64,000 nt of DNA, taken from a virus. The position numbers were made by a program, and so were the translations under genes. The number at the start of each line of letters is the position of its first letter. Position 1 is the first letter of the stretch. This document shows positions 1 through 60,700 of this stretch, piece by piece. The notes below the pieces were generated by a model. It saw only the letters and a program-made list of their open reading frames with translations. It was not told the DNA's origin and made no database searches. Where the stretch lies: the IMG/VR virus record IMGVR_UViG_3300049988_000263; one strand, written 5' to 3'.

Positions 1-339
1 GACAACCGCGCTCACCGAGATGTCCGAGTTGCGACGCTGCTGGCGCTGCGAATGGAACTCGTTGAAGATGTCATCGAAGCCGAACGGACCCTGGTGGGCA
101 CGAAGATCAAACTCGAAATCCCCACCCGACTGCGGACGCGGGTTTAGCGCCTCGGCCCGCTTCTGGGGATCGCTGAGAATCTGGTGGGCCTCATTGATTT
201 CCTTGAACCGAGCCTCGGCCGCCTTGTCACCGGGATTCTTGTCCGGATGCCACTGAAGGGCCAGCTTGCGGAACGCCGCCTTGATCTGTTCCGGCGTTGC
301 GTCGCGTGACACGCCAAGGGTCACAAATGGGTCGTTCAT
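1..339 (-). CDS. dnaJ: DnaJ/Hsp40 J-domain protein (3' end outside window)
   Basis: Hand translation from ATG at 339: [55 protein letters not shown]; HPD motif followed by a G/F-rich stretch. Confidence 0.9.
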
Positions 340-4181: not shown

Positions 4182-5108
4182 GTGGTAATCAACATCGAAA
4201 GACTGCTGAGCGCCAGCCGGACCACCCACGCGAAACTCGCCCAGGAAACCCACTGCTACTGGTGCGAGGAACTGTTCAACGACGAACACGTCTATGGGTC
4301 GAACCCGACCATGGATCACGTCATTCCGCTGGCCGATCTCGGACCCCGTACCGCCGCGTTCAATCTCGTCCGAGCCTGCGGGTTCTGTAATGGACTGCGC
4401 GGGCACGCCCACGTGTACGAATGGGAAGTCGTCGTACATGACTTCGTCAAACCATACCGGCGCGATCTCCCCGGTATGGCCCAGGCTCTGGCCCAGGCAG
4501 AAGGCTTCCGACGATACGCGGTGATCGTGAAAAGCATCGCCGAACGCCAAGCCATCGAACAAGTCGAAGAAGTCTCGATCCGCCGTTGGTCAGTCGATGA
4601 CGCCGCCTCAGAATTCAACGTCTCGCTCAAACGGCTCCCGAACGATTACGGGATCAACTGGTTCGAGTTCCTAAAAAGCATGATCCATACGGTCAAGGTG
4701 GATCAGATGAGCGCCGCCACCTCTCCGGTCTGGACCAACGCGGGCCTCGACCTGAAGATCAGCCGCCATGCCCGCCATGGAGCGCTGCTGGACGGCGATC
4801 TCGCCATGGTCACCCCAACGGAATGGAGAATCCTGAAGACGTTCAAAGACGCTCCAGAAGCCGTCCGCTTCCGAACAGCGGTCGGTGATGGGAATGTCTA
4901 CATGAACCTGCTCAAACTCGGCCGAGATCGAATGGGTATCCTTCTGCATCGGCCTAACCGGACCAAACAGGAGGCGAAGAACCTCTTCCTCTACGGAACG
5001 AGCGGAGCCGCCGCCCTGCGAATCCACGCGTACGCAACCCAAGAAATCATCCATCCCCTGTTGATGGAGCAAAAAGAGGTTGACACGCGTTTAGGGGTTC
5101 CTGCATAA
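4182..5108 (+). CDS. HNH nuclease-domain protein
   Basis: CYWC...MDHVIPL...NLVRACGFCNGLRG; GTG start after AGGAG. Confidence 0.75.
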   Translation: MVINIERLLSASRTTHAKLAQETHCYWCEELFNDEHVYGSNPTMDHVIPLADLGPRTAAFNLVRACGFCNGLRGHAHVYEWEVVVHDFVKPYRRDLPGMAQALAQAEGFRRYAVIVKSIAERQAIEQVEEVSIRRWSVDDAASEFNVSLKRLPNDYGINWFEFLKSMIHTVKVDQMSAATSPVWTNAGLDLKISRHARHGALLDGDLAMVTPTEWRILKTFKDAPEAVRFRTAVGDGNVYMNLLKLGRDRMGILLHRPNRTKQEAKNLFLYGTSGAAALRIHAYATQEIIHPLLMEQKEVDTRLGVPA

Positions 5109-5111
5109 ATA
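5080..5111 (+). promoter_or_regulatory. Promoter of the Ser/Gln leader
   Basis: TTGACA (5080) and CATAAATA (5104). Confidence 0.7.
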
Positions 5112-5116
5112 AAATC

Positions 5117-5212
5117 ATGATCGTCCTGAGTTCACAGCAGCAGTCCCAACAGTCGTCGTCCTCATCGAGGGCGCGGGGTTCTGTGCTGGGCGTGGAAGAG
5201 ATTGCTTTGTAA
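5117..5212 (+). CDS. Attenuator leader peptide, Ser/Gln-rich (MIVLSSQQQSQQSSSSSRARGSVLGVEEIAL)
   Basis: 9 Ser and 5 Gln codons in 31 aa; followed by a terminator; upstream of Ser/Gln tRNAs. Confidence 0.8.
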   Translation: MIVLSSQQQSQQSSSSSRARGSVLGVEEIAL

Positions 5213-5239
5213 GCGAATCCCAACCACGTTTAGGTTCAG

Positions 5240-5269
5240 ACCCCGGTGCGAAAGCAGCCGGGGTTTTTT
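5240..5269 (+). terminator. Attenuator terminator 1
   Basis: ACCCCGG-TGC-GAAA-GCA-G-CCGGGGT-TTTTT; the 5' arm is also complementary to 5174-5183. Confidence 0.85.
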
Positions 5270-5294
5270 ATTGCCAAATTCAGGAAGAATCACA

Positions 5295-5644: not shown

Positions 5645-5890
5645 CCCCGTTCGATGATCTAGGTAAGGGTCATCGAACGGGGCACGGACCCTACCAACGC
5701 CTTAGGGTCCATAAACATCAGCCAGAGGGGAAACCCCCTGGAGGTCCGCGAGAGCACCGTCCGGGGTCAAGCCGATAACAGGCGAGTACCGGAAGGCCAT
5801 GGAGCGGGTGGCCAAACATAAGGAAGGAGTGAGGGTCATGGGTACAGCAGGGCGGGGCGCCCATCCCTAAGTCGGGAAAGCCTCAACAGA
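5645..5890 (+). ncRNA. Putative structured ncRNA before the tRNA-Ser cluster
   Basis: No credible CDS; 16-bp hairpin 5645-5682, GGACCCT/AGGGTCC, CCAG-GGGG-AAA-CCCC-CTGG and GGCCA/TGGCC hairpins. Confidence 0.45.
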
Positions 5891-5901
5891 GAGTGTAGCG
5901 C

Positions 5902-5990
5902 GGACGGGTGACCGAGCCCGGCTTAAGGTAGCGGTCTTGAAAACCGCCGAGGGTGAAAGCCCTCCGTGGGTTCGAATCCCACCCCGTCCG
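5902..5990 (+). tRNA. tRNA-Ser(UGA)
   Basis: Cloverleaf, loop CTTGAAA, long variable arm, G73; no encoded CCA. Confidence 0.95.
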
Positions 5991-6038
5991 CCCTACACTT
6001 TCACGATCCAGCGGAGATTTGCTGAGGTCGTAACAAGA

Positions 6039-6392: not shown

Positions 6393-6416
6393 CGCTAAAT
6401 TCTATATGTTTTTGAG

Positions 6417-6507
6417 GGACAGGTGGCTGAGTTGGCTTAAGGCGCGCGCCTGGAAAGTGCGTGTACGTGAAAGCGTACCCCGAGTTCGAATCTCGGTCTG
6501 TCCGCCA
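6417..6507 (+). tRNA. tRNA-Ser(GGA)
   Basis: Cloverleaf, loop CTGGAAA, GCCA end. Confidence 0.95.
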
Positions 6508-6570
6508 AAAACATATAGATAGTAAATGAGCTAATTTCTATTATTCCTGCATATTGTAGGAATTTTAGAA

Positions 6571-7038: not shown

Positions 7039-7053
7039 CGAGAAGTGTTTTGC

Positions 7054-7127
7054 TGAGGGATCATCTAGCGGTAGGATAGCGGTCTCTGACACCGTTCACC
7101 TTGGTTCGAATCCAAGTCCCTCAGCCA
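7054..7127 (+). tRNA. tRNA-Gln(CUG)
   Basis: Cloverleaf, U1, loop CTCTGAC, GCCA end. Confidence 0.93.
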
Positions 7128-7155
7128 AACACTTTACAAGACAGCAGTAATTCGC

Positions 7156-7226
7156 TTGGGATTAGTTTAACGGTAGAACTAAGCACTCTGAATGCTTCAG
7201 TCGTGGTTCGAATCCATGATCCCAAG
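7156..7226 (+). tRNA. tRNA-Gln(CUG), second copy
   Basis: Cloverleaf, loop CTCTGAA. Confidence 0.9.
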
Positions 7227-7243
7227 CAAATTACTGTTTTAAT

Positions 7244-14358: not shown

Positions 14359-14567
14359 AAATCACGGTGATAGAGCGGCGTGACAATAATACCTCGTACT
14401 TCTTCATCGGAAGTATTGCAGCGATCTCGAATCAAGAGGAAGAGGTCGAGCGGGTCAGAGAATGGCTCGCCGACAACCTCAGACCTAACAAGTATACGTT
14501 GCGGGTAAACCTTCTCTGGTTCGAGGATGATCGCGACGCCTGTGCGTTCAAACTGGTGTGGATGTGA
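14355..14567 (+). CDS. FKxRW-family small protein
   Basis: Ends FEDDRDACAFKLVWM. Confidence 0.75.
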   Translation: MKITVIERRDNNTSYFFIGSIAAISNQEEEVERVREWLADNLRPNKYTLRVNLLWFEDDRDACAFKLVWM

Positions 14568-14842
14568 TGCGGACGTTCAAGGATATCCAAAACGACGATG
14601 CAACCACGGTGATCCATCCGGCTGACCCGTGGTCGCTTGCGGTGTTTCAGGCGATGAAGAGCGCACTGGAGGCCGAAGCGGAACTCGACAAGGCCCTGTC
14701 CGACCCTGCCCTGAACTACACGGGGCAGTACGAGGCGATCGACTTCCACGGAGGCAAGGAGATCGCGTTCAATCGCGCGGTGGACCATCTCGGTTCGACG
14801 ATCACCAACATGGTGGTTGCCAAAACCAAAGAGATCAGCTAA
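14558..14842 (+). CDS. Hypothetical protein
   Basis: 94 aa, coupled to the previous gene. Confidence 0.55.
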   Translation: MDVMRTFKDIQNDDATTVIHPADPWSLAVFQAMKSALEAEAELDKALSDPALNYTGQYEAIDFHGGKEIAFNRAVDHLGSTITNMVVAKTKEIS

Positions 14843-23833: not shown

Positions 23834-23864
23834 TTGACACCTCGGTTAAGGTCTGAGATAAATA
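23834..23864 (+). promoter_or_regulatory. Promoter of the His leader
   Basis: TTGACA-N17-GATAAATA. Confidence 0.75.
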
Positions 23865-23869
23865 AAGTC

Positions 23870-23920
23870 ATGAACACGCATTCGCATCATCATGTCTCGA
23901 AGGGGTCACACCCGTCGTAA
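23870..23920 (+). CDS. Attenuator leader peptide, His-rich (MNTHSHHHVSKGSHPS)
   Basis: 5 His in 16 aa, three in tandem; terminator and tRNA-His follow directly. Confidence 0.85.
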   Translation: MNTHSHHHVSKGSHPS

Positions 23921-23951
23921 ACGCCGCAAGGCGTGATGCGAATCTGTGTGC

Positions 23952-23982
23952 AACCCCGGTAAGCTATGCTTCCGGGGTTTTT
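23952..23982 (+). terminator. Attenuator terminator 2
   Basis: AACCCCGG-T-AAGC-TAT-GCTT-CCGGGGTT-TTT; 23946-23957 can pair instead with 23902-23911. Confidence 0.85.
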
Positions 23983-24003
23983 CTTTGGTCTTTGGACCAA
24001 TAT

Positions 24004-24079
24004 GGTGGCCGTAGTTCAGTGGTAGAACGTCGCCCTGTGACGGCGAATGTCGCCGGTTCGAATCCGGTCGGCCACCCCA
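24004..24079 (+). tRNA. tRNA-His(GUG) with G-1:C73
   Basis: Cloverleaf, loop CTGTGAC, encoded G-1, C73 and CCA. Confidence 0.95.
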
Positions 24080-24098: not shown

Positions 24099-24650
24099 AT
24101 GAGAATTTCGACCGAGCAGGCGCATGCGTTGTTCGACTGCTTCGAAGACTCTGGGCTTCTCATCGATCCGGACGGGTCCTGGCGCAAGAACTTCCACATG
24201 GAGGTCTCTGTGCTCGGGCATAAGCGCTGGAGCCAAGGCCCGTGGACGCTGATGAACGAGTGGGGCAAGCTGAAGCCTCCTCGGCTGTCGATGGCACCGC
24301 TCGGCGCGTTGTCCACGCCGGAACGCGAGATCGCCGAGGCCGACCGGCTGGAGCGGGTCAACGCGGAGATCGCCCGGATCATGTCGAACGAGCCCGTGCC
24401 GGACCCGGACTTCGCCAAGAGCTTCCCCCGGATCACCCAGGCCGAGATGGAAGCGATGGACGAGGCCCAATGGGAAGCGTTCTTCGACAAAGTCGATGAG
24501 ACCGGCCCCTACATCATCACGAGCCCTCACCGCAAAGACGTGGTGATACTCTCGATCAAGCAATTCGCACGTCTGACAGGAGAAAAACTATGCTGCGAGG
24601 AACTCGAATCATCGACGGAGCCCAGGCCCGACTCTTCACCGACACCATAG
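24099..24650 (+). CDS. Hypothetical protein, possible C-terminal Phd/YefM-like domain
   Basis: FFDKVDETGPYIITSPHRKDVVILSIKQFARL. Confidence 0.55.
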   Translation: MRISTEQAHALFDCFEDSGLLIDPDGSWRKNFHMEVSVLGHKRWSQGPWTLMNEWGKLKPPRLSMAPLGALSTPEREIAEADRLERVNAEIARIMSNEPVPDPDFAKSFPRITQAEMEAMDEAQWEAFFDKVDETGPYIITSPHRKDVVILSIKQFARLTGEKLCCEELESSTEPRPDSSPTP

Positions 24651-25199
24651 AGACGATCCGGAGGTGTCTTCATCGAGGCTGAGTTCGAGGAAATCATCGT
24701 CCCCTCGATTTGGGAGGCGGAGACTTTTCTGGACAAGGTCGGCGACGAAAATCGCCGGATGATGTGGACGTTTCAGGACAAGGGCGAGCGTAACGTCTGC
24801 CTGATCCCGGAGGTTACCGGACTGTTGCAGGAGACGTGGCGGGAGGATTGGTCGAAGCGCTCCAAAACCCGCAACGTCTTCTACGTCCAGCGCTGCTACC
24901 GGTACGAGCGCCCCCAGGCGGGTCGATACCGGGAGTTCACCCAGCTTGGTATTGAGATGCTGGGGAGCCAGGACAGCACCAGGGCAAAGGCGCTCCTACG
25001 GGATTGCCTTGACCGGTTCGACGTGGAATATTCGTTCAACGAATCTGCCAAGCGCGGCCTCTCCTACTACGTGGAGGAGGGGTTCGAGGCGAGCGTGGCC
25101 AAGCTCGGCGCGCAGAAGCAGATCGCGGGTGGAGGGGCCTACGCCGAAGGTGTAGGCTGGGCCATTGGAATCGATCGATTGGTCCTGGCGAGGCAGTAA
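24590..25199 (+). CDS. hisS: Minimal histidyl-tRNA synthetase-like catalytic core with a +1 frame break near 24662
   Basis: AGGAG SD; MLRGTRII...ETIRR then, in the +1 frame, VFIEAEFEEIIVPSIWE; motif 2 YRYERPQAGRYREFTQLGIE; motif 3 GWAIGIDRL; no anticodon-binding domain. Confidence 0.8.
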
Positions 25200-25753
25200 T
25201 GGCTAAGATTGACAGCCACACCGATTTAGATGAGCTTCGGCGGCGTCAGAAGGGTGATCGCGATGCTGAGAGAAATCAGGAGGCCGAGGCGATCTACAGG
25301 AAAGACCTGGGAAACCTCGCCCTTCCGATCCTGAGTATTTTTTCAATTCTCTTCTTCATCATTGATTTTAAGGAGATTCCGTCTTCATCGGGTATCGGAC
25401 TGCTGTTGCTCGCCTCGTGTATCACGTACATTATAGGGTTTGTGCTGGGCACGGCGATCACCATAGGGGCCGTCTGCTTTATCGTCTTGAAGAATCGTTG
25501 GCGCCGACGCCAGGATGATCGAATCCTTAATCTCCATGAAGATGAGCGTGAACATCTGGTCCACTATGCGTACGGTGGAGATCGTCCTCTGGTCTGCCGG
25601 TACATCGTCTTGCGGGACGAGGTGCTGGATTGGGCGAAACAATCCGGAGTCAAGATGGCCGTGCTCACAACGTATCGGAAACAAGGGGACATCCCACTGG
25701 TTTGGTTCAGAAATCCCGAACACGCTGTGGCATTCAAGATGCGTTGGTATTAG
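25199..25753 (+). CDS. TM segments fused to an FKxRW-family domain
   Basis: Two hydrophobic stretches; ends FRNPEHAVAFKMRWY. Confidence 0.75.
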   Translation: MAKIDSHTDLDELRRRQKGDRDAERNQEAEAIYRKDLGNLALPILSIFSILFFIIDFKEIPSSSGIGLLLLASCITYIIGFVLGTAITIGAVCFIVLKNRWRRRQDDRILNLHEDEREHLVHYAYGGDRPLVCRYIVLRDEVLDWAKQSGVKMAVLTTYRKQGDIPLVWFRNPEHAVAFKMRWY

Positions 25754-27966: not shown

Positions 27967-28890
27967 TCACGCATCGATGAAGCGACACTCAAACTCTTGC
28001 GCGAAAGCGCGCTCACCCAGGGCATTCCGTTGCGTCGTGGCCCAGGCTTCATCCCGATCCGGATGGCAATCCCACGGAGCGAAGAACGGCGCGATCCCAT
28101 TCTGCCCACGACCATTGTCATCCACCTGAGTCTGCGACCCCTGCCAGACCTTGTGGAACAGGTCCCCGGTGAAGTTTGGCGTCGAGGTGAGGATGAAACG
28201 TGACGTGGGATTGCCCATCATCACCTGCATGGCATCCCACAGGTCCGGGCCAAGGCTGTGTGAGATATAGGCGAGTTCGTCGATGATCGTCAGCGAGATG
28301 GTCAGACCTCTAAAGGAGCCCGAGCCAGCCGCACGGGCCACGATCCGAGTCCCATTGTCGAAGCAAATCGCACCCTTGTTGTACTCGGTCGTGCCCATCT
28401 GAATATGCGGGGGTAGCTGCTCATAGATGAATCGGATTCGCTCCATGATCTCTAAGGCCCCGGCATATCGAGACGAAATGACCATCACGGTCTTATTGTC
28501 ATGAAATAGCGCGAACCACAGCGCATAGATCGCGATACAGGTGGTTTTCCCCATCTGCCGGGCCATATTCACCACGGTCCGAGGATTTCCCTGATAGAAA
28601 GCAAGAAGATGTTTCTGGAAGGGATACGGTTGGAACTTGATCGAACCCTTCACCGGGTGGTTGACGTGGCAATGCTTGGAGAATTCGAGAACACTTTCCG
28701 ACGCCTTGACGAGGTCCCGCATCTCTTCGAACAGGTAGGACTTCGCGGGTTCCTTCTTTGGTGGCGTGACCGGGGAAATGTAGTCGGCGATCGCGTTGGC
28801 TTTTAGGAACAGATCGTTAAGATTCGTCATTCCGGGATGCAGGCGAATGGCCGCATCGAGTGCGTGAACGCGCACTTGCTTCTTATCCAT
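27967..28890 (-). CDS. T4 gp17-like terminase ATPase domain (no nuclease domain)
   Basis: HPVKG..FQPYPFQ, Walker A MARQMGKTT, Walker B IIDELA, motif III TSTPN; ends at QEFECRF. Confidence 0.85.
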   Translation of the reverse strand: MDKKQVRVHALDAAIRLHPGMTNLNDLFLKANAIADYISPVTPPKKEPAKSYLFEEMRDLVKASESVLEFSKHCHVNHPVKGSIKFQPYPFQKHLLAFYQGNPRTVVNMARQMGKTTCIAIYALWFALFHDNKTVMVISSRYAGALEIMERIRFIYEQLPPHIQMGTTEYNKGAICFDNGTRIVARAAGSGSFRGLTISLTIIDELAYISHSLGPDLWDAMQVMMGNPTSRFILTSTPNFTGDLFHKVWQGSQTQVDDNGRGQNGIAPFFAPWDCHPDRDEAWATTQRNALGERAFAQEFECRFIDA

Positions 28891-31130: not shown

Positions 31131-31340
31131 ATGAAGTTCGAGTACAGCCGCAAGATCGAGGGGCAGCATCACTTCTGCTGCTTCCCCCAGGGAATGACCG
31201 CAAACGAGAATTTCGTCCGCTTCGTCACCTCTGGCCAGAAGTGGGCCGAGCGGCGTGGGGAATGCGAGCGGGCTGGGCTCTACGTCCTGCTGATCCGGGA
31301 CGACGACCTTGCCATGGAATTCCGTATGAGGTGGTGCTGA
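31131..31340 (+). CDS. FKxRW-family small protein (MKFEY subtype)
   Basis: Ends IRDDDLAMEFRMRWC. Confidence 0.8.
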   Translation: MKFEYSRKIEGQHHFCCFPQGMTANENFVRFVTSGQKWAERRGECERAGLYVLLIRDDDLAMEFRMRWC

Positions 31341-31633
31341 TGGTTAAGATGTTCGAAATTAGAGAAGTTAGAGAAGTGGATAGTCCCGGTTACAGGTTTT
31401 TTTTGAAAGAGCATTGGCCATACTGCGGCGAGATGAACGCTATTTTTTTGATAGATCAGTCTCAGAGGTATCGAGCACAAAAGTGGTGTCGCACGCGATT
31501 CGGAGATCAGGCAAACCGCGAATCAAGCGGTCAGCTTTTCTATAACACGAAGCGCTCCTGGGTTAACGTTCATACGTTTTTCCGCTTCAGAAACGAGAAT
31601 GACGCGTTCGAATTTAAGATGACCTGGGGATAA
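31340..31633 (+). CDS. FKxRW-family small protein
   Basis: Ends FRNENDAFEFKMTWG. Confidence 0.8.
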   Translation: MVKMFEIREVREVDSPGYRFFLKEHWPYCGEMNAIFLIDQSQRYRAQKWCRTRFGDQANRESSGQLFYNTKRSWVNVHTFFRFRNENDAFEFKMTWG

Positions 31634-31692
31634 TGGGAACGCATAATTTTATTATATATCGCGATGACGATTAACCGAAGGATGGCGTACAT

Positions 31693-31920
31693 ATGAGAAC
31701 AACCGAATCACCGCGAACCCTGGTCTACCTCGATCATGTGGAATTCGATTTCACCAATGACGCCGGGGTACGCTCGCGTCGATCGGTCGAATTCCATAGC
31801 TTCCAGTATCTAAACGGGACGATCCTGCTGAGCGCCTGGGACTTCGACAAGAAGGCCCAGCGATCGTTCGACGTCACCAAACTCTCGAACGTCACGGCCC
31901 AACGAGGGCCGCGCTCGTGA
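31693..31920 (+). CDS. Small WYL-like hypothetical protein
   Basis: FDFTNDAGVRSRRSVE...LLSAWDFDKKAQRSFDVTKL resembles the WYL Y....G..R.V.P...C..R...R.F pattern. Confidence 0.5.
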   Translation: MRTTESPRTLVYLDHVEFDFTNDAGVRSRRSVEFHSFQYLNGTILLSAWDFDKKAQRSFDVTKLSNVTAQRGPRS

Positions 31921-32129
31921 AGTTCGAGTACGAGCAAGAGACGCGCTACGGTAAGCACTGCTTCACCTGCTTTGGAACCGATGCGCACTCGCACGACGAA
32001 GTGATCGCGTTCGTCGATGAGGCGGCGTGCTGGGTCGGTGAACAGGGTGGCGGGATTCGCCACCACAGATATGCGATTCTCATCGACTCGGACGACCTCG
32101 CGTTCGAGTTTAAGATGCGGTGGTGCTGA
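31917..32129 (+). CDS. FKxRW-family small protein (MKFEY subtype)
   Basis: Ends IDSDDLAFEFKMRWC. Confidence 0.8.
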   Translation: MKFEYEQETRYGKHCFTCFGTDAHSHDEVIAFVDEAACWVGEQGGGIRHHRYAILIDSDDLAFEFKMRWC

Positions 32130-32380
32130 TGATCACATACGATCGACACCTTAAGAACCGGTCCGCCATGCCTCATCGATTCGAGATCAAAGAATCGTCC
32201 AAGTTGATCCTCGACGATATCGTTGCATGGTGCCAGGAACAGTTCGGGGAACCGTTCCCCGGTCCCTTTTCGGGTCGCCCCGCCAGTCCAGATGAATTGT
32301 GGTGCGGCATGTGGGGAAACGAAGTAATCTTCATCCGACACGACCGGGATGCATTTAATTTCCGCCTGCGGTGGTGTTGA
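32129..32380 (+). CDS. FKxRW-family small protein
   Basis: Ends IRHDRDAFNFRLRWC. Confidence 0.8.
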   Translation: MITYDRHLKNRSAMPHRFEIKESSKLILDDIVAWCQEQFGEPFPGPFSGRPASPDELWCGMWGNEVIFIRHDRDAFNFRLRWC

Positions 32381-32616
32381 TGCCACGCTTCACCTACGAT
32401 TTCGAGAACACAAACTACGCAAGATTCCCGCACGCGTTCTCACTCGTCGGCGAGATTGAGAATCTTCGCATCAAAGATGCCGTCCACTTCGTGACCGAAG
32501 CCGAGAAATGGTGCGCCCAAGCGTTCGGCGAGAAATCCTACTGGCGCTCCAGCATGTTCGTGCTCCGCCTGCACACGGACGACCAAGCCTTCGCATTCCG
32601 CCTGCGTTGGTGCTGA
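32380..32616 (+). CDS. FKxRW-family small protein
   Basis: Ends LHTDDQAFAFRLRWC. Confidence 0.8.
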   Translation: MPRFTYDFENTNYARFPHAFSLVGEIENLRIKDAVHFVTEAEKWCAQAFGEKSYWRSSMFVLRLHTDDQAFAFRLRWC

Positions 32617-32680: not shown

Positions 32681-33130
32681 ATGTACGACTGGTACAAGGT
32701 CCAATCGATCGTCACCGAATCCCTCCCCCGTGATGCACTCCGGCGCCTGCGCGAGATGGAAGCGGAGATCGAACAGGACGTGGAGCGGCAAACCGCATTC
32801 CTCAGCCGGGTGCGCGATCGGATCGACGGACTCACCAAGGTGATCGGTGACGAACCCACCCTCAAGACGAATGACGTTCAGGCCCTGGTGGATCGGATCA
32901 ACCACGAGCCGGATACCCTGCGCAATCAAGTGATCAAGGTGTTGCTCGCAGCAGACTACCCCATGACCCCCAAGGGCGTGAGCGAGTGCATCCCCGGCGC
33001 TCAATACCACGAAGTCTGGCGCGTGTTCTCCAAGCCCAAGAAGGGCATGAAGGCCCTGGTCCAAGAACCTTTCATCAATACGATCGGCTTCGGAAGGGAT
33101 CGACGCTACGAGATTCCGAAGAGCACGTGA
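32681..33130 (+). CDS. Hypothetical protein (coiled coil plus possible wHTH)
   Basis: GAGGG SD; 149 aa. Confidence 0.6.
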   Translation: MYDWYKVQSIVTESLPRDALRRLREMEAEIEQDVERQTAFLSRVRDRIDGLTKVIGDEPTLKTNDVQALVDRINHEPDTLRNQVIKVLLAADYPMTPKGVSECIPGAQYHEVWRVFSKPKKGMKALVQEPFINTIGFGRDRRYEIPKST

Positions 33131-33157
33131 AGGAACAGAAATCTCGTTCGACGGTTA

Positions 33158-33189
33158 TTGACACGCGTTTTGCACTCCCGGTATAAATA
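33158..33189 (+). promoter_or_regulatory. Promoter of the Met/Cys/Pro/Tyr/Phe leader
   Basis: TTGACA-N18-TATAAATA; shares TTGACACGCGTTT with the promoter at 5080. Confidence 0.75.
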
Positions 33190-33194
33190 AAATC

Positions 33195-33263
33195 ATGAAC
33201 ACGATGTGCCGCCCAATGCCGTATTTTCCCACCAAGGGGGCTCAGCCCACCGTGGAGCGGTAA
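33195..33263 (+). CDS. Attenuator leader peptide MNTMCRPMPYFPTKGAQPTVER
   Basis: Same promoter-leader-terminator layout as 5117 and 23870. Confidence 0.75.
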   Translation: MNTMCRPMPYFPTKGAQPTVER

Positions 33264-33292
33264 CACGCGCATATCCATAGGTGAGGTTTCGA

Positions 33293-33322
33293 GCCCCGGT
33301 CGCGAAAGCAGCCGGGGTTTTT
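33293..33322 (+). terminator. Attenuator terminator 3
   Basis: GCCCCGGTCGCGAAAGCAGCCGGGGTTTTT, nearly identical to terminator 1; GAGCCCC (33291-33297) pairs with GGGGCTC (33237-33243). Confidence 0.85.
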
Positions 33323-33435
33323 CTTTGCCTATAGCGTTCCCAAGTCAGACTCACCGAGTCAGATAACGGGGAAGCTGTGTCAGTAATAAAATTTGAGAGT
33401 ACTGAAAATACTTTCAAAAAAATTCAAATTAGTCG

Positions 33436-33464
33436 TTGACACCAAGATCGAGATGGAGGATAAC
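33436..33464 (+). promoter_or_regulatory. Possible sigma70-type promoter for the ncRNA/tRNA cluster
   Basis: TTGACA-N17-GATAAC. Confidence 0.5.
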
Positions 33465-33480
33465 AGGACAACGAAACGAC

Positions 33481-33710
33481 GGAACAAGTAACCGATCACA
33501 TCAAGGCTGGTGTAACGGCAGGATACCCAAAGCGCACCTTCACTCTCGCATCTGAGAGGTCGGATCGCCAGGGCCGAAGTCGAAATACGGTCTGACCGTG
33601 ATAGGCGCCTATCTGATCAGGACGTGCATGCCCGGCATGGAACCGGGAGGTGGGGCCGACTTATAAATCGGATTCCCGATTGTCATCTGATGTGATCGGT
33701 TACTTGTTTC
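33481..33710 (+). ncRNA. Structured ncRNA module A
   Basis: 21-bp perfect closing inverted repeat 33483-33503/33688-33708; GGATACC, GGCCGA, CTGAC motifs. Confidence 0.7.
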
Positions 33711-33713
33711 AGA

Positions 33714-33880
33714 AGAATCGTTGAATGATCTCATAGCTGGGGGCGTAAAAGGTAGGTCACCTTAAGGGCGATTGATGGCCTCAAAGGCCGATACCAAAAC
33801 TGACGCAAAGGAGTTTTAAACTCCTAGGAAAGGTATGAATCCCTTCCCAGATTGACACTATGAGATCATTCAACGATTCT
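33714..33880 (+). ncRNA. Structured ncRNA module B
   Basis: 23-bp perfect closing inverted repeat 33714-33736/33858-33880; GGTCACC, GGCCGA, CTGAC. Confidence 0.7.
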
Positions 33881-33882
33881 AA

Positions 33883-34055
33883 AAGGACGAAGAACAGACC
33901 GTAGTAAAGAGGTCCGGGCAGGACACCAAAGCCACGTAGGCTTAGGCCGATGCCCGCGCTGACAAACAGCGCTTTAGTGGGACGCCATGCATGAAACATG
34001 GAGGAGTCGGCGCAATACCGGCCAAGTCACCTACTACGGTCTGTTCTTCGTCTTT
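33883..34055 (+). ncRNA. Structured ncRNA module C
   Basis: 21-bp perfect closing inverted repeat 33886-33906/34032-34052; GGACACC, GGCCGA, CTGAC. Confidence 0.7.
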
Positions 34056-34288
34056 AAGAGGTAGGTAGTTAACCGTACTTGCACTAAGATAATCAGTTGG
34101 TCACCTCGGATGTGCGCACATCCAGGCCGAAACTGACACCATTCGCTGCGTAAGCAAAGGCTCCAAGGGTGAGACTGATCATCCACCTTTGAAGCTGGCG
34201 GTGGGAGGCAATCTGGCGAGTTTGGAACTCGTGAAATCTGGGTGAGAATCCCAGGTGAGACATGAGTACGGTTAACTATCTACCTCTT
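34056..34288 (+). ncRNA. Structured ncRNA module D
   Basis: 24-bp closing stem (one G-U) 34056-34079/34265-34288; GGTCACC, GGCCGA, CTGAC. Confidence 0.7.
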
Positions 34289-34290
34289 AT

Positions 34291-34374
34291 GGGAGAGTGT
34301 CCCGAGCGGCAATGGAGGCAGACTGTAAATCTGCTGCGTAAGCTTCGTAGGTTCGAGTCCTACCTCTCCCACCA
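34291..34374 (+). tRNA. tRNA-Tyr(GUA)
   Basis: Cloverleaf, loop CTGTAAA, variable arm, ACCA end. Confidence 0.95.
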
Positions 34375-34567
34375 AGAATTACCGAACGGTAATAAAAACC
34401 GTTTATTACCGTTCGGTTATAACGATGCTCGACAGCAGAATGAGGCTGGCGGATGGGAATCCATGGTAGTGCCCACCGTGCCCTTCGGGGATAGGTGGTG
34501 TGATTCCCCAAGCATCGACCAGAGATCGAGACCTGCGCGTTCTGCGGTGCGCCCATGGTCTCGTCGT

Positions 34568-34646
34568 CGGGGTGTAGCTCAGTCAGGTAGAGCGCTCGGT
34601 TTGGGACCGAGAGGATTCGTCAGTTCGATTCTGACCGCCCCGACCA
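34568..34646 (+). tRNA. tRNA-Pro(UGG)
   Basis: C1-G72, loop TTTGGGA, ACCA end. Confidence 0.93.
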
Positions 34647-34714
34647 AAGAATACCGGTAGGAGGAGCACCCGTTCCTCTCTAAGTCGCCCTGCGGATGGA
34701 GGGTAGAGCCAAAT

Positions 34715-34790
34715 GCCTCTGTAGCTCAGTTGGTAGAGCTTTCGATTGAAGATCGAAGAGTCGGCGGTTCGAGTCCGTCTGGAGGCACCA
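34715..34790 (+). tRNA. tRNA-Phe(GAA)
   Basis: Cloverleaf, loop TTGAAGA, ACCA end. Confidence 0.95.
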
Positions 34791-34899
34791 ATTCGTCCTC
34801 CCTGAGTAATTGGGAAGGATAACAGGGTAGAAGTGGGGTTAGATCACTGCAACGTTCGGAACGTTGCAAACTCGGGGCAGCGCCGGGTACCCTGACCAC

Positions 34900-35400
34900 T
34901 TACTGTCGCTTCCGCCACGCGTCTATGTAGGCCATGATCTTGGCCTCGACGAGGTGGCGGAAGCGGGAGTGCCAATATTGGTGATGATTTGGACATAGCG
35001 GGATGAGATTCCCAGGCTCGTTGTTCGAATTATCGCCATCGAGATGATGCACTTCGACGATGTTCTCTTCGTCGCAGACAACGCATCGTTTCGAATGGAA
35101 GTGAAAGCAGGTGGAGCGATACCGGGATTCTTTCCAGTTCGCAGAATCTGGTCCAGAGCGGAAATGGGTGTTTGCGCATCCGTATCCGCAAGTTGCTGAT
35201 GTCTTGTAGTTCTTTATCGGAGAATCGCAGACAATACAGGGTTTTAGATTCGACGGATTCAGGTGGCACGACGCTTCGTGTTTCTTGATGTTACCAAGAG
35301 TTCTTTCGGCAGAACAGTAGCGACAGGCTTCCTTCCGGACAGCCGCTCGGCGCGCTTTCTCAAGATTCTGGTAATGTTGTTCGGATCGATTATAAGACAT
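34900..35400 (-). CDS. HNH homing endonuclease within the tRNA cluster (antisense)
   Basis: CxxC motifs; VEVHHLDGDNSNNEPGNLIPLCPNHHQYWH. Confidence 0.9.
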   Translation of the reverse strand: MSYNRSEQHYQNLEKARRAAVRKEACRYCSAERTLGNIKKHEASCHLNPSNLKPCIVCDSPIKNYKTSATCGYGCANTHFRSGPDSANWKESRYRSTCFHFHSKRCVVCDEENIVEVHHLDGDNSNNEPGNLIPLCPNHHQYWHSRFRHLVEAKIMAYIDAWRKRQ

Positions 35401-35465
35401 GTCAGAGTAAGGCTTAATGAATAAGCATACTCTGACAGATCGGTTGGACTCAGGTCCATAAGTTT

Positions 35466-35540
35466 GGCAGTGTAGCTCAGGGGTAGAGCAGACGACTCAT
35501 AACCGTCAGGTCGGTGGTTCGAAGCCACCCACTGCCACCA
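35466..35540 (+). tRNA. tRNA(CAU): Met or Ile2
   Basis: Cloverleaf, loop CTCATAA, ACCA end. Confidence 0.92.
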
Positions 35541-35546
35541 AGGTTT

Positions 35547-35621
35547 GTTCGTGTGGTGTGAAAGGTTAGCCAGGGCTCTGCAAAAGCTCTTATGACAGTT
35601 CGAGTCTGTCCACGAACTCCA
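35547..35621 (+). tRNA. tRNA-Cys(GCA)
   Basis: Loop CTGCAAA, U73, CCA. Confidence 0.88.
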
Positions 35622-35627
35622 GGGTAT

Positions 35628-35704
35628 CAGCGCGTAGCTCAGTCAGGTAGAGTATCACGTCGGGAACGTGAGGGTCGTTGGGTCGTAGCCAACCGTGCTG
35701 ACCA
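35628..35704 (+). tRNA. Atypical tRNA-Pro (GGG in the standard register)
   Basis: C1-G72, A73, CCA; anticodon loop TCGGGAA (C33, A37); T-loop GTCGTAG. Confidence 0.65.
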
Positions 35705-36494: not shown

Positions 36495-36737
36495 TTGATG
36501 ATTCGGTTCTTTCCGTTCAGATATGTCGGAGCCAGAAAGGAAGTATTCCCCTGGCCTTATAAGTTCGATTCGGGATTCATCGGGCCTATAGAGGCTGAAA
36601 ACGCAGGCATTTTGATTGTGCATACGTGGTGTGTCGATCAGTTCGGCGAACCCGGTCTACGCTGGGACAATCGCGAGAGTTTCTTTGGCTTCGCTAGTCA
36701 GGTGGACGCGACTGCATTCAAGATTCGGTGGGGTTGA
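36495..36737 (+). CDS. FKxRW-family small protein
   Basis: Ends FASQVDATAFKIRWG. Confidence 0.8.
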   Translation: MMIRFFPFRYVGARKEVFPWPYKFDSGFIGPIEAENAGILIVHTWCVDQFGEPGLRWDNRESFFGFASQVDATAFKIRWG

Positions 36738-36964: not shown

Positions 36965-36978
36965 CCATAAATATGCGC

Positions 36979-37350
36979 ATGAGAATGCGCGAGATCATGG
37001 CCCTGGTTGAGAACACTATTCCACGGGTCCTATACCATGCTACGTACGCCCCGTACCTTCCGTCGATCGAGGATCACGGAATCGGTGGGAAGCCCGGCCT
37101 GAAGAACTATGACGCCTCCGAGGATGGCATCGTGTATCTGGCAACCAGCCGGAACGTTGCGGTATCGTACGCGGAGGTGTCCGAGGAGGTGCCGGAGGCA
37201 TTTCTAGAGCAGATCGTCGTCTTGGCCGTGGCGGTCTCTGATCTCGATCCCTCGAAGCTCGCGGCTGACCGAAACGTTCATATGGACGAGCCGGAGCATG
37301 GTCAGACCTTCGAGTATCATGGAGTGATTAAGCACTTCCGAGTTCTATGA
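36979..37350 (+). CDS. Late protein with a possible ADP-ribosyltransferase/Tpt1-like fold
   Basis: LYHATY..YLPSIEDHGI...VYLATSRNVAVSYA; ATAAATA upstream; N-terminus MRMREIMALVE. Confidence 0.5.
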   Translation: MRMREIMALVENTIPRVLYHATYAPYLPSIEDHGIGGKPGLKNYDASEDGIVYLATSRNVAVSYAEVSEEVPEAFLEQIVVLAVAVSDLDPSKLAADRNVHMDEPEHGQTFEYHGVIKHFRVL

Positions 37351-60286: not shown

Positions 60287-60354
60287 ACAAATTCCCTACC
60301 ACGACTCGTTTTGGGTTGACAGACCCGCGAATCCGTTTATATACAAATGCATGT

Positions 60355-60430
60355 AGCGACGTGGCGTGAGTGGATAACCGCAGGCCCGCAAGGTCTGATC
60401 ATACAGGTTCGAATCCTGTCGTCGCTGCCA
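60355..60430 (+). tRNA. Atypical tRNA (GCA anticodon, Cys-like or pseudo)
   Basis: 7-bp acceptor, T-arm ACAGG-TTCGAAT-CCTGT, loop CCGCAAG (C33), weak D-stem, G73, CCA. Confidence 0.55.
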
Positions 60431-60492
60431 AAGAATCACACGAGGCGGACACCTCGTTAGGTCTTGATCTGGACCTATCTTAGAATGTTTAA

Positions 60493-60522
60493 GGCCCGAC
60501 CCCGAAAGGGGCCGGGTTTTTT
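60493..60522 (+). terminator. Intrinsic terminator
   Basis: CCCG-CCCC-GAAA-GGGG-CCGGG-TTTTTT. Confidence 0.75.
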
Positions 60523-60700
60523 GTTGCCTTGAAAGCACACATGGTTAACCTTAATATTGGTCGATAAAAATTGACTCTTTTCAATGCTTTGAATCCAACC
60601 TAAACCGTTAGCATTCAGCCAGAGGTTCGCAGGATTGGTTAGACGAAAACCAAGCGCCTTAGGTCGATTGATAACAACTGGTTCATCGGGGGGATCGAAG

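What the first reader, a model, noticed from the sequence alone, without database searches (positions are those of the whole stretch)
33158..35704. Multi-amino-acid leader (M-C-R-P-M-P-Y-F-P) mirrors the downstream tRNA set
Seen: 8 of 9 consecutive codons (ATG TGC CGC CCA ATG CCG TAT TTT CCC) specify Met, Cys, Pro, Tyr or Phe. The downstream tRNAs are Tyr, Pro(UGG), Phe, CAU, Cys and a GGG-type Pro. GGGGCTC (33237-33243) is perfectly complementary to GAGCCCC (33291-33297). The terminator is nearly identical to that at 5240. Inference: one leader acts as an OR gate over five amino acids. Caveat: about 1 kb of ncRNA modules and another TTGACA (33436) intervene.
Basis: partly seen in the sequence, partly recalled or inferred. 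Interest (0 to 1): 0.86.

Follow-up and report, generated by a model that had tools for sequence, protein, structure and literature searches.

The report
Codon-matched leader attenuator before phage tRNAs
An uncultured leaf-associated phage puts a tiny translated "test" gene and a switchable transcription stop in front of a tRNA gene cluster, written in the codons those tRNAs read. It therefore probably lets extra transcription through to the tRNAs only when those codons are decoded slowly, a control I could not find published for tRNA genes.

Summary
A promoter (33158-33189) sets the likely transcript start on the ATG at 33195. A 22-codon ORF follows. Codons 4-12 are Met-Cys-Arg-Pro-Met-Pro-Tyr-Phe-Pro. 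A strong intrinsic terminator lies at 33291-33326. Its 5' arm can instead pair with GGGGCTC inside the ORF.

No 9-codon window in this phage's own genes is as rich in these codons (0 of 11,287). Two paralogous modules in the window follow the same rule: a Ser/Gln leader before four Ser and two Gln tRNAs, and a His leader before tRNA-His.

In two related metagenomic phages the module is the best conserved segment. The only changes inside the control run stay within the Met/Cys/Pro/Tyr/Phe set or hit the single non-matching Arg codon.

Ribosome-position folding shows the antiterminator survives stalls in the control run and is lost at its end. The best reading is a multivalent leader-peptide attenuator.

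There are three corrections:
- The CAU tRNA looks like tRNA-Ile2, so the Met match is doubtful.
- A conserved second promoter (33436-33465) lies behind the terminator, so attenuation is not the only route to the tRNAs.
- Transcript ends remain unmapped.

Earlier AI notes of this scan report the same design in other phages. I re-read and confirmed one case, phiCbK.

The parts
33158..33189 (+). Promoter: TTGACA (33158-33163), 18-nt spacer, TATAAATA (33182-33189). The predicted start is on or next to the A of the ATG at 33195, giving a leaderless mRNA.
   Evidence: One search gives the sequence. ATAAATA followed by 4-5 nt and ATG also precedes three long protein ORFs, at 36979 (+), 52516 (+) and 38094 (-). 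The same layout occurs at 5080 and 23834.
33195..33263 (+). Leader ORF of 22 codons plus TAA (MNTMCRPMPYFPTKGAQPTVER).
   Evidence: Frame, length and stop are conserved in L003 and L007.
33204..33230 (+). Control run, codons 4-12: Met Cys Arg Pro Met Pro Tyr Phe Pro.
   Evidence: In L003 only the Arg codon changes, to Gln. In L007 Cys changes to Met, Met to Phe, and one Pro codon changes synonymously.
33237..33243 (+). 5' strand of the antiterminator (GGGGCTC), inside the leader ORF.
   Evidence: In L007 the pairing is 8 bp, GGGGCTCT with AGAGCCCC.
33244..33290 (+). Central hairpin enclosed by the antiterminator helix. It contains the stop codon.
   Evidence: Folds.
33291..33326 (+). Intrinsic terminator: a GC-rich hairpin (CCCCGG / CCGGGG core) followed by TTTTTCTTT. 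Its first 7 nt (GAGCCCC) are the 3' strand of the antiterminator.
   Evidence: terminator probability about 1 at equilibrium. The core is identical to 5248-5268.
33436..33465 (+). Second promoter P2: TTGACA, 18-nt spacer, ATAACA, preceded by an A-rich tract. It lies between the terminator and the RNA genes.
   Evidence: It is conserved in L003 and in the otherwise diverged L007. A similar element stands before the Ser cluster at about 5640.
33481..34288 (+). Four tandem structured RNA modules, each closed by a 23-26 bp stem. They match no Rfam family.
   Evidence: (z-score -16). L003 has three modules and L007 has one.
34291..34790 (+). tRNA-Tyr(GTA) 34291-34374, tRNA-Pro(TGG) 34568-34646, tRNA-Phe(GAA) 34715-34790.
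34900..35400 (-). HNH endonuclease gene inserted in the cluster on the opposite strand.
   Evidence: PF13391.
35466..35704 (+). CAU tRNA 35466-35540 (probably tRNA-Ile2), tRNA-Cys(GCA) 35547-35621, tRNA-Pro(GGG) 35628-35704.
   Evidence: The identity of the CAU tRNA rests.
5080..5270 (+). Paralogous module A. Its leader holds the run SSQQQSQQSSSSS and stands before an ORF, a structured RNA, tRNA-Ser x4 and tRNA-Gln(CTG) x2.
   Evidence: It is conserved in L032, L033 and L034.
23834..23985 (+). Paralogous module B. Its leader is MNTHSHHHVSKGSHPS and it lies directly before tRNA-His at 24005.
   Evidence: It is conserved in L003 and L007.

Best explanation
This is a ribosome-mediated (leader-peptide) transcription attenuator. 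It senses decoding of several codon families at once and sits upstream of the tRNA genes that read those codons.

Proposed sequence of events:
1. Transcription starts at about 33195 and gives a leaderless mRNA.
2. A ribosome translates the 22-codon leader while RNA polymerase moves on.
3. If the ribosome is slowed at Cys, Pro, Tyr or Phe codons (perhaps Met) in codons 4-12, the segment GGGGCUC just downstream stays free. It pairs with GAGCCCC, the terminator cannot form, and transcription runs on through the spacer, the four structured RNAs and the six tRNA genes.
4. If decoding is fast, the ribosome covers or unwinds GGGGCUC before the terminator is made. The hairpin with its U-tract forms and the transcript ends at about 33326.

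The result would be negative feedback: more phage tRNA is made when the matching aminoacyl-tRNAs are scarce.

The tRNA cluster also has its own conserved promoter P2. Attenuated read-through is therefore an added, demand-dependent input, perhaps the main one late in infection if ATAAATA is a late-type promoter.

Shown by computation:
- the sequence anatomy;
- the codon/tRNA match;
- the alternative pairings;
- the conservation in relatives.

Inferred:
- translation of the leader;
- stalling;
- termination efficiency;
- any effect on tRNA levels.
For: 1. Codon match. Eight of nine codons match the cluster, or six of nine without Met. Every non-CAU tRNA species is represented. No window in the phage's own ORFs matches this.

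2. Three modules defined by shared promoter and terminator sequence, not by peptide content, each match only their own cluster. Matches on the diagonal are 13/30, 5/15 and 9/21. Mismatched pairs score 0-1, except 4/15 Ser codons of the His leader against the Ser/Gln cluster.

3. The partner of the terminator's 5' arm differs between modules but stays complementary:
- GGGGCTC with GAGCCCC;
- GGGGTCACAC with GTGTG-CA-ACCCC;
- GGGGT-T-CTG with CAGACCCC;
- in L007, GGGGCTCT with AGAGCCCC, and GGGGTCACA with TGTGGCCCC.

4. In truncated-transcript folds with a ribosome footprint, the 5' arm is sequestered with P 0.94-0.99 while the A site is at codons 1-8. The value falls to 0.01 at codon 12. The same switch at the end of the control run appears in all A, B and C versions from all the phages examined.

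5. Module C is 98.3% identical in L003, against 70-82% for the flanking genes. It is 82% identical in L007, where the flanking genes no longer align.

6. Changes within the control run stay in the amino-acid set, or hit the one non-matching codon. The His leader gains in-frame His codons. The Ser/Gln run is unchanged in four phages apart from synonymous Ser codons, while the rest of that peptide diverges.

7. ATAAATA followed by 4-5 nt and ATG also heads long protein ORFs.

8. A phyllosphere metatranscriptome holds a 243-nt contig covering 33205-33447, across the terminator.

9. phiCbK has an analogous unit. A leaderless 32-codon ORF with the run QFVRQIQVVRNI and a terminator stands before tRNA-Phe, Val, Ile, Ile, Val, Gln, Gln and Gly.
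Against: - P2 (33436-33465) is conserved and lies behind the terminator. The tRNAs can therefore be made without read-through.
- About 1 kb of other RNA genes intervenes between the terminator and the first tRNA.
- At equilibrium the terminator always wins, so the model depends on kinetics.
- Module C shows no clear anti-antiterminator. With no ribosome, the antiterminator is the default fold, unlike the His module.
- Each amino acid has only 1-3 control codons.
- The CAU tRNA is probably Ile2, and the leader holds no AUA codon.
- Contigs cannot show RNA ends, and DNA runs break at similar places.
- The relatives' contigs end inside tRNA-Tyr. I could not test whether the loss of the Cys codon in L007 goes with loss of tRNA-Cys.
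Confidence: 0.62

Rival explanations
1. The same attenuator hardware reads the host's amino-acid or translation state in general, not tRNA supply. It would tie the expression of the downstream RNA genes, and in other modules small ORFs, to host physiology. The match to the tRNA set would then be only loosely functional.
For: A stalled ribosome cannot tell a missing amino acid from a missing tRNA; this follows from what is established about trp and his attenuation. In module A and in L007's module C, a protein ORF follows the terminator directly.
Against: The codon-level match reaches individual isoacceptors. All four Ser anticodons of cluster A and both Pro anticodons of cluster C are represented. 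The rule holds in three modules and in phiCbK.
Confidence: 0.15
2. The module is a self-contained short transcription unit whose product is a small peptide or a terminated leader RNA acting in trans. The tRNA cluster is expressed from P2 only, and the terminator mainly insulates the cluster from upstream transcription.
For: P2 is conserved and carries an upstream A-rich tract. The terminator is very strong. Attenuator-derived small RNAs with functions of their own are known in Sinorhizobium (PMC6614838, listed).
Against: This reading does not explain why the leader's codons track the tRNAs behind it in every module. It also does not explain why the antiterminator pairing is maintained by changes on both strands. 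An RNA-library contig crosses the terminator.
Confidence: 0.13
3. The leader RNA senses tRNAs directly by codon-anticodon pairing without being translated, in the manner of a T-box.
For: The codons are complementary to the downstream anticodons by definition.
Against: No T-box or other Rfam family matches the region. The ATG keeps a fixed distance from the promoter. Frame and stop are conserved. Indels are in frame (an added CAC His codon), and Ser changes are synonymous. All of these point to translation.
Confidence: 0.03
4. Coincidence: a spurious short ORF lies between an ordinary promoter and an ordinary terminator.
For: Module C taken alone has few codons per amino acid, and a 7-nt complement is not rare on its own.
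Against: None of 11,287 windows in the phage's own ORFs is as enriched. Three modules out of three follow the rule. The module is more conserved than the neighbouring genes.
Confidence: 0.03

Closest known systems
Multivalent leader-peptide attenuators of enterobacterial amino-acid operons (ilvGMEDA leader for Leu/Val/Ile; thr leader for Thr/Ile)
   Same: Both have a short translated leader with control codons for several amino acids, an intrinsic terminator, and a competing antiterminator whose formation depends on where the ribosome stalls. A stall at any control codon favours read-through.
   Different: The regulated genes here are tRNA genes and structured RNAs of a phage, not biosynthetic enzymes. 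The mRNA is apparently leaderless. Four or five amino acids are represented by only 1-3 codons each. A second promoter lies behind the terminator. There is no sequence homology.
hisL and trpL classical attenuators
   Same: The sister module at 23834 has a His-codon run and a full set of 1:2, 2:3 and 3:4 alternative pairings. Module C shares its promoter, its first codons (Met-Asn-Thr) and its terminator type.
   Different: Module C shows no clear anti-antiterminator. Its target is tRNA genes.
pheM leader of the pheST operon (phenylalanyl-tRNA synthetase) and T-box leaders of aminoacyl-tRNA synthetase genes
   Same: All are transcription attenuation that adjusts a component of the decoding apparatus to the charging or supply of the cognate tRNA.
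   Different: pheM controls a synthetase and senses one amino acid. T-boxes bind uncharged tRNA directly and are not translated. Neither controls tRNA genes.
Analogous units before the tRNA blocks of Caulobacter phage phiCbK (NC_019405.1), noted earlier in this scan
   Same: A leaderless short ORF enriched in the amino acids of the tRNAs behind it, followed by an annotated rho-independent terminator.
   Different: The sequences and the phage lineage are unrelated, and the amino-acid sets differ. The genome paper does not describe these units (PMC3556154).

Membership tests
Leader-peptide (ribosome-mediated) transcription attenuator | A short ORF placed so that it can be translated as soon as it is transcribed. 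| tested here: met
   The ATG lies 5 nt after ATAAATA, at the predicted transcript start. Three long protein ORFs have the same arrangement. Frame and stop are conserved in three phages. Translation itself is not shown.
Leader-peptide (ribosome-mediated) transcription attenuator | A cluster of control codons for the sensed amino acids. | tested here: met
   Eight of nine codons match (six of nine firm). No window of 11,287 in the phage's own ORFs is comparable.
Leader-peptide (ribosome-mediated) transcription attenuator | An intrinsic terminator between the leader and the regulated genes. | tested here: met
   A GC-rich hairpin followed by TTTTTCTTT at 33291-33326.
Leader-peptide (ribosome-mediated) transcription attenuator | An antiterminator that excludes the terminator and is conserved. 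| tested here: met
   GGGGCTC pairs with GAGCCCC and stacks on a central hairpin. The pairing is 8 bp in L007. The paralogous modules have different but complementary partners.
Leader-peptide (ribosome-mediated) transcription attenuator | A stall at the control codons permits the antiterminator, and translation beyond them prevents it. | tested here: met
   This was tested in silico only. P(5' arm sequestered) is 0.94-0.99 at codons 1-8, 0.5-0.7 at codons 9-11 and 0.01 at codon 12.
Leader-peptide (ribosome-mediated) transcription attenuator | An anti-antiterminator (1:2 pairing) that gives termination when the leader is not translated. | tested here: inconclusive
   It is clear in the His module (P 0.01 with no ribosome). 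In module C the antiterminator is the default fold in the truncated transcript.
Leader-peptide (ribosome-mediated) transcription attenuator | Read-through rises when the cognate aminoacyl-tRNA is limiting. | not testable with these tools
   The only evidence is a metatranscriptome contig crossing the terminator.
T-box riboswitch | The covariance-model signature: specifier loop and T-box antiterminator bulge. | tested here: not met
   No Rfam match other than tRNAs, even at E-value up to 1.

The most novel reading that the evidence does not exclude
The attenuators are sensors of tRNA loss. When host defence nucleases, or phage-induced turnover, deplete particular tRNAs (Tyr, His, Ser, Gln, Pro, Phe, Cys), ribosomes stall on the matching leader. 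The phage then switches on exactly the replacement tRNA cluster. This would be a codon-addressed, on-demand counter-defence circuit built from leaderless mini-genes.
Probability: 0.2. Interest if true: 0.9.

Novelty: new variant of a known kind. Interest (0 to 1): 0.76.

Why it matters
Why phages carry tRNA genes, and how they decide when to express them, is an open question. The usual answers are codon-usage compensation or replacement of tRNAs destroyed by host defences.

A leader whose codons list the tRNAs behind it would mean the phage measures decoding speed codon family by codon family and feeds that back on its own tRNA supply. Classical attenuation would then extend from amino-acid biosynthesis to the decoding machinery itself.

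The idea is directly testable. The unit is about 170 nt long and can be moved into a reporter. An analogous unit exists in a cultured phage-host pair, phiCbK and Caulobacter.

I found no description of such control in the searchable literature. Earlier AI notes of this scan report the same design in many other phage genomes. This is therefore a further, independent lineage and not the first sighting within the project.

Tried and rejected
Searches for relatives that led nowhere:
- INPHARED phages matched only the tRNA genes.
- IMG/VR gave nothing real for the promoter pattern, for two flanking proteins, or for two conserved module cores.
- GTDB genomes gave nothing for the module C core and two chance matches for the His core.
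- The single JGI metagenome scan with the promoter-plus-ATG pattern gave 14 loci, almost all chance.
- More distant split-terminase relatives (L006, L024, L025-27) have no tRNAs near the terminase.
- Homologues of the protein downstream of cluster C sit on contigs under 1.2 kb with no tRNAs. I therefore could not test whether leader and tRNA content co-vary in module C.
- No whole genome is held for this window, and records behind Logan loci cannot be searched.

Other dead ends:
- Equilibrium folding of the full leader always gives the terminator, so I used truncated transcripts.
- Rfam gives nothing for the leader or the four structured RNAs.
- I do not use the ends of the RNA-library contig as transcript ends, because DNA contigs break at similar positions.

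I considered and rejected three readings: chance, a tRNA-derived remnant, and direct T-box-like sensing. The reasons are given under the rival explanations.
Full report
**What is there**

The window comes from an uncultured large phage.
- It has 56% G+C and 16 tRNA genes.
- It carries a T4-type terminase ATPase ORF and a ClpB-like ATPase.
- Most of its proteins match no family.
- Near-identical DNA occurs in leaf and silage metagenomes.

The layout at 33158-33326 is as follows.
- TTGACA is followed by an 18-nt spacer and TATAAATA.
- Five bases later comes an ATG at 33195, which opens a 22-codon ORF ending in TAA at 33261-33263.
- A GC-rich hairpin with a TTTTTCTTT tail lies at 33291-33326.

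- codons 4-12;
- the six downstream tRNAs;
- the 7-nt complementarity between 33237-33243 and 33291-33297;
- the near-identity of the terminator with the one at 5240.

**Is it more than chance?**

I used the codon usage of 42 long ORFs of this window as background.
- Codons read by the six tRNAs make up 14.8% of positions.
- Eight of nine such codons in a row has P about 2e-6, or 2.5e-5 after allowing for the choice of window.
- No 9-codon window among 11,287 in the phage's own ORFs reaches 8 of 9. Only one reaches 6 of 9 when Met is excluded.
- Nine random codons cover the five non-CAU tRNA species with P about 1e-4.

**The decisive context: two paralogous modules**

The promoter motif ATAAATAAA(A/G)TCATG and the terminator core define three modules in the window. 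This definition does not depend on what the peptides contain.
- Module A (5080-5270) encodes a leader with the unbroken run SSQQQSQQSSSSS. The run uses AGT, TCA, TCC, TCG, CAG and one CAA. Module A precedes tRNA-Ser with anticodons TGA, GCT, CGA and GGA, and two tRNA-Gln(CTG).
- Module B (23834-23985) encodes MNTHSHHHVSKGSHPS. It ends 20 nt before tRNA-His.

Each leader matches its own cluster: 13/30, 5/15 and 9/21 codons, with P of 4e-7, 9e-5 and 2e-3. Against the other two clusters the leaders score 0-1 codons. The one exception is the His leader, whose four Ser codons give 4/15 against the Ser/Gln cluster.

**Leaderless start**

ATAAATA occurs nine times in the window.
- At 36967, 52505 and 38106 (- strand) it is followed after 4-5 nt by the ATG of a long protein ORF with no Shine-Dalgarno sequence.
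- In this phage, therefore, ATAAATA followed by 4-5 nt and ATG looks like a regular way to express proteins from leaderless mRNA.
- TATAAATA is the T4 late-promoter consensus (established knowledge). Whether a phage sigma factor is involved here is inference.
- Only the three leader modules also carry a TTGACA at the -35 position.

**Alternative RNA structures**

At equilibrium the terminator dominates for every ribosome position. This is expected for a kinetic switch. I therefore folded transcripts cut in the terminator loop, with a ribosome footprint blocked out.
- In module C the terminator's 5' arm is held in the antiterminator with P 0.94-0.99 while the A site is at codons 1-8. The antiterminator is GGGGCUC paired with GAGCCCC, stacked on a central hairpin.
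- The value is 0.5-0.7 at codons 9-11 and 0.01 at codon 12.
- The switch point thus coincides with the end of the control run.
- The same holds for module A in four phages and module B in three phages.
- Module B is a textbook case. With no ribosome, the His-codon segment pairs with the antiterminator's partner and frees the terminator arm (P 0.01).
- Module C lacks a clear state of that kind.

The antiterminator partners differ between modules and phages, but they stay complementary:
- CTC/GAG;
- TCACAC/GTGTG;
- TCTG/CAGA;
- CTCT/AGAG;
- U-G in the L007 His module.

This is covariation among paralogues and orthologues.

**Relatives**

No close relative exists in INPHARED or IMG/VR. Through the terminase I found two syntenic metagenomic phages: L003 (63% protein identity) and L007 (43%).

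- *Conservation.* Module C is 98.3% identical in L003, against 70% for the terminase gene and 82.5% for the upstream ORF. It is 82% identical in L007, where the neighbours no longer align.
- *Module C leaders.* L003 changes only CGC (Arg) to CAG (Gln), the one codon that matches no tRNA of the cluster. L007 reads MNAMMRPFPYFPSQGALPTGMR. Within the control run Cys becomes Met, Met becomes Phe, and one Pro codon changes synonymously, so all changes stay inside the set. Six of the ten codons downstream of the run change, and only one of those lands in the set.
- *His leaders.* These gain in-frame His codons (HHH, HHHH, HHHHH). The tRNA-His genes behind them are only 74% identical.
- *Module A.* In L032, L033 and L034 the Ser/Gln run is kept exactly, with only synonymous Ser changes. 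The distal peptide diverges. The same Ser tRNA set follows as far as those contigs reach.
- *Limit.* Both relatives' contigs end inside tRNA-Tyr. I could not ask whether the loss of the Cys codon in L007 goes with loss of tRNA-Cys.

1. *The CAU tRNA.* The tRNA at 35466 shares an identical D-arm and anticodon arm with an E. coli gene that PGAP annotates as tRNA-Ile with a CAT anticodon. Most of its phage look-alikes that carry an annotation are called tRNA-Ile. It is probably tRNA-Ile2, which reads AUA after lysidine modification. The leader has no AUA codon. The Met match is therefore doubtful, and the firm set is Cys, Pro, Tyr and Phe.
2. *The second promoter.* The TTGACA at 33436, with an 18-nt spacer, ATAACA and an A-rich upstream tract, is conserved in L003 and in L007. 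A similar element stands before the Ser cluster. It is very likely a real second promoter. Read-through from the leader can therefore only add to transcription of the cluster.
3. *What lies between terminator and tRNAs.* In L007, and in module A, a small protein ORF follows the terminator. In the window, four stem-closed structured RNAs lie between P2 and tRNA-Tyr. L003 has three of these RNAs and L007 has one.

**RNA evidence**

- One phyllosphere metatranscriptome (X25) contains a 243-nt contig covering 33205-33447 with 8 differences. The five differences listed all lie behind the terminator.
- X25 also holds pieces on two of the structured RNAs and on tRNA-Tyr. It holds nothing laid on 33000-33187.
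- This fits a transcript that starts near 33195 and passes the terminator.
- However, contigs cannot give RNA ends, DNA runs break at similar positions, and DNA carry-over is not excluded.

**Comparison with what is known**

- The mechanism is that of classical leader-peptide attenuation. The closest cases are the multivalent ilv and thr leaders. The pheM leader of pheST is closest in logic.
- The differences are the target (tRNA genes of a phage), the leaderless start, the number of amino acids sensed with few codons each, and the bypass promoter.
- Four literature searches found no description of attenuators before tRNA genes. Nor did the phiCbK genome paper.
- Earlier AI notes of this scan report the same design in many other phage genomes.
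- I checked one of those notes myself. In phiCbK a leaderless 32-codon ORF containing QFVRQIQVVRNI is followed by an annotated terminator. It precedes tRNA-Phe, Val, Ile, Ile, Val, Gln, Gln and Gly.
- Two further phiCbK units match less sharply.

**Verdict**

It needs correction on the Met codons and on exclusive control of the cluster. Against the published record this is a new variant of a known kind of regulation, but it is already recurrent within this scan. Confidence in the attenuator reading for module C is about 0.6. It is higher for the three modules taken together.

Noticed in passing
window 24590-25199: The mini histidyl-tRNA synthetase behind tRNA-His reads as one protein only with a +1 shift near 24660 (AGG T GTC). 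The preceding ORF 24099-24650 ends with a TAG in the same frame as the synthetase core. L007 shows the same break, so it is probably not an assembly error.
   Followed up: partly
window 31241-32616, 36495-36737, 25199-25753, about 14432-14568: This is a multi-copy family of small proteins that all end in a motif like AF-x-F-(K/R)-(M/L/I)-R-W, followed by C, G or Y and the stop. Several copies stand in tandem just upstream of module C.
   Followed up: no
window 33481-34288; L003 48-666 (-); L007 about 30-240 (-): The number of stem-closed structured RNA modules before tRNA-Tyr varies: four in the window, three in L003 (module 2, 33713-33884, is absent) and one in L007. They share motifs such as GGCAGGAYACCC and GGGCCGAAG and match no Rfam family.
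   Followed up: partly
window 5890-6005, 6400-6520, 7045-7240: Many tRNA genes are flanked by complementary leader and trailer segments that extend the acceptor stem by about 10 bp. One example is GAGAGTGTAGC before and CTACACTTTC after tRNA-Ser(TGA). This suggests processing of a long precursor at double-stranded sites.
   Followed up: no
L018 251-619 (Ga0210389_10097551): An unrelated metagenome contig has the same promoter motif, a 14-codon ORF (MTYITFTAWRFTTA), then tRNA-Phe, tRNA-Phe and tRNA-Trp. There is no clear U-tract terminator. The codon match is only marginal (P about 0.02). The contig also encodes an IF-1-like protein.
   Followed up: partly
L012 and L016 (JACCDN010185220.1, OEIV010000563.1): This is a bacterial-looking leader of 23 codons, rich in Tyr, with a terminator in front of an aminotransferase-like gene. 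It was picked up by chance in the promoter scan and looks like an ordinary amino-acid attenuator.
   Followed up: no
window 24005-24079 versus L003 8874-8950 and L007 6527-6602: The tRNA-His genes behind the conserved His leader are strongly diverged: 74% identity between the window and L003, against 91% for the leader module. This suggests replacement or fast evolution of the tRNA while its identity is kept.
   Followed up: partly
window 27967-28890 (-): The terminase large subunit is represented only by its N-terminal ATPase part (307 aa). In distant relatives the nuclease part is a separate gene several kb away, beside GIY-YIG or intein-like genes.
   Followed up: no
window 60319-60530: A second tRNA-Cys(GCA) has its own TTGACA/TATATA promoter directly in front and its own terminator behind, with no leader.
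   Followed up: no
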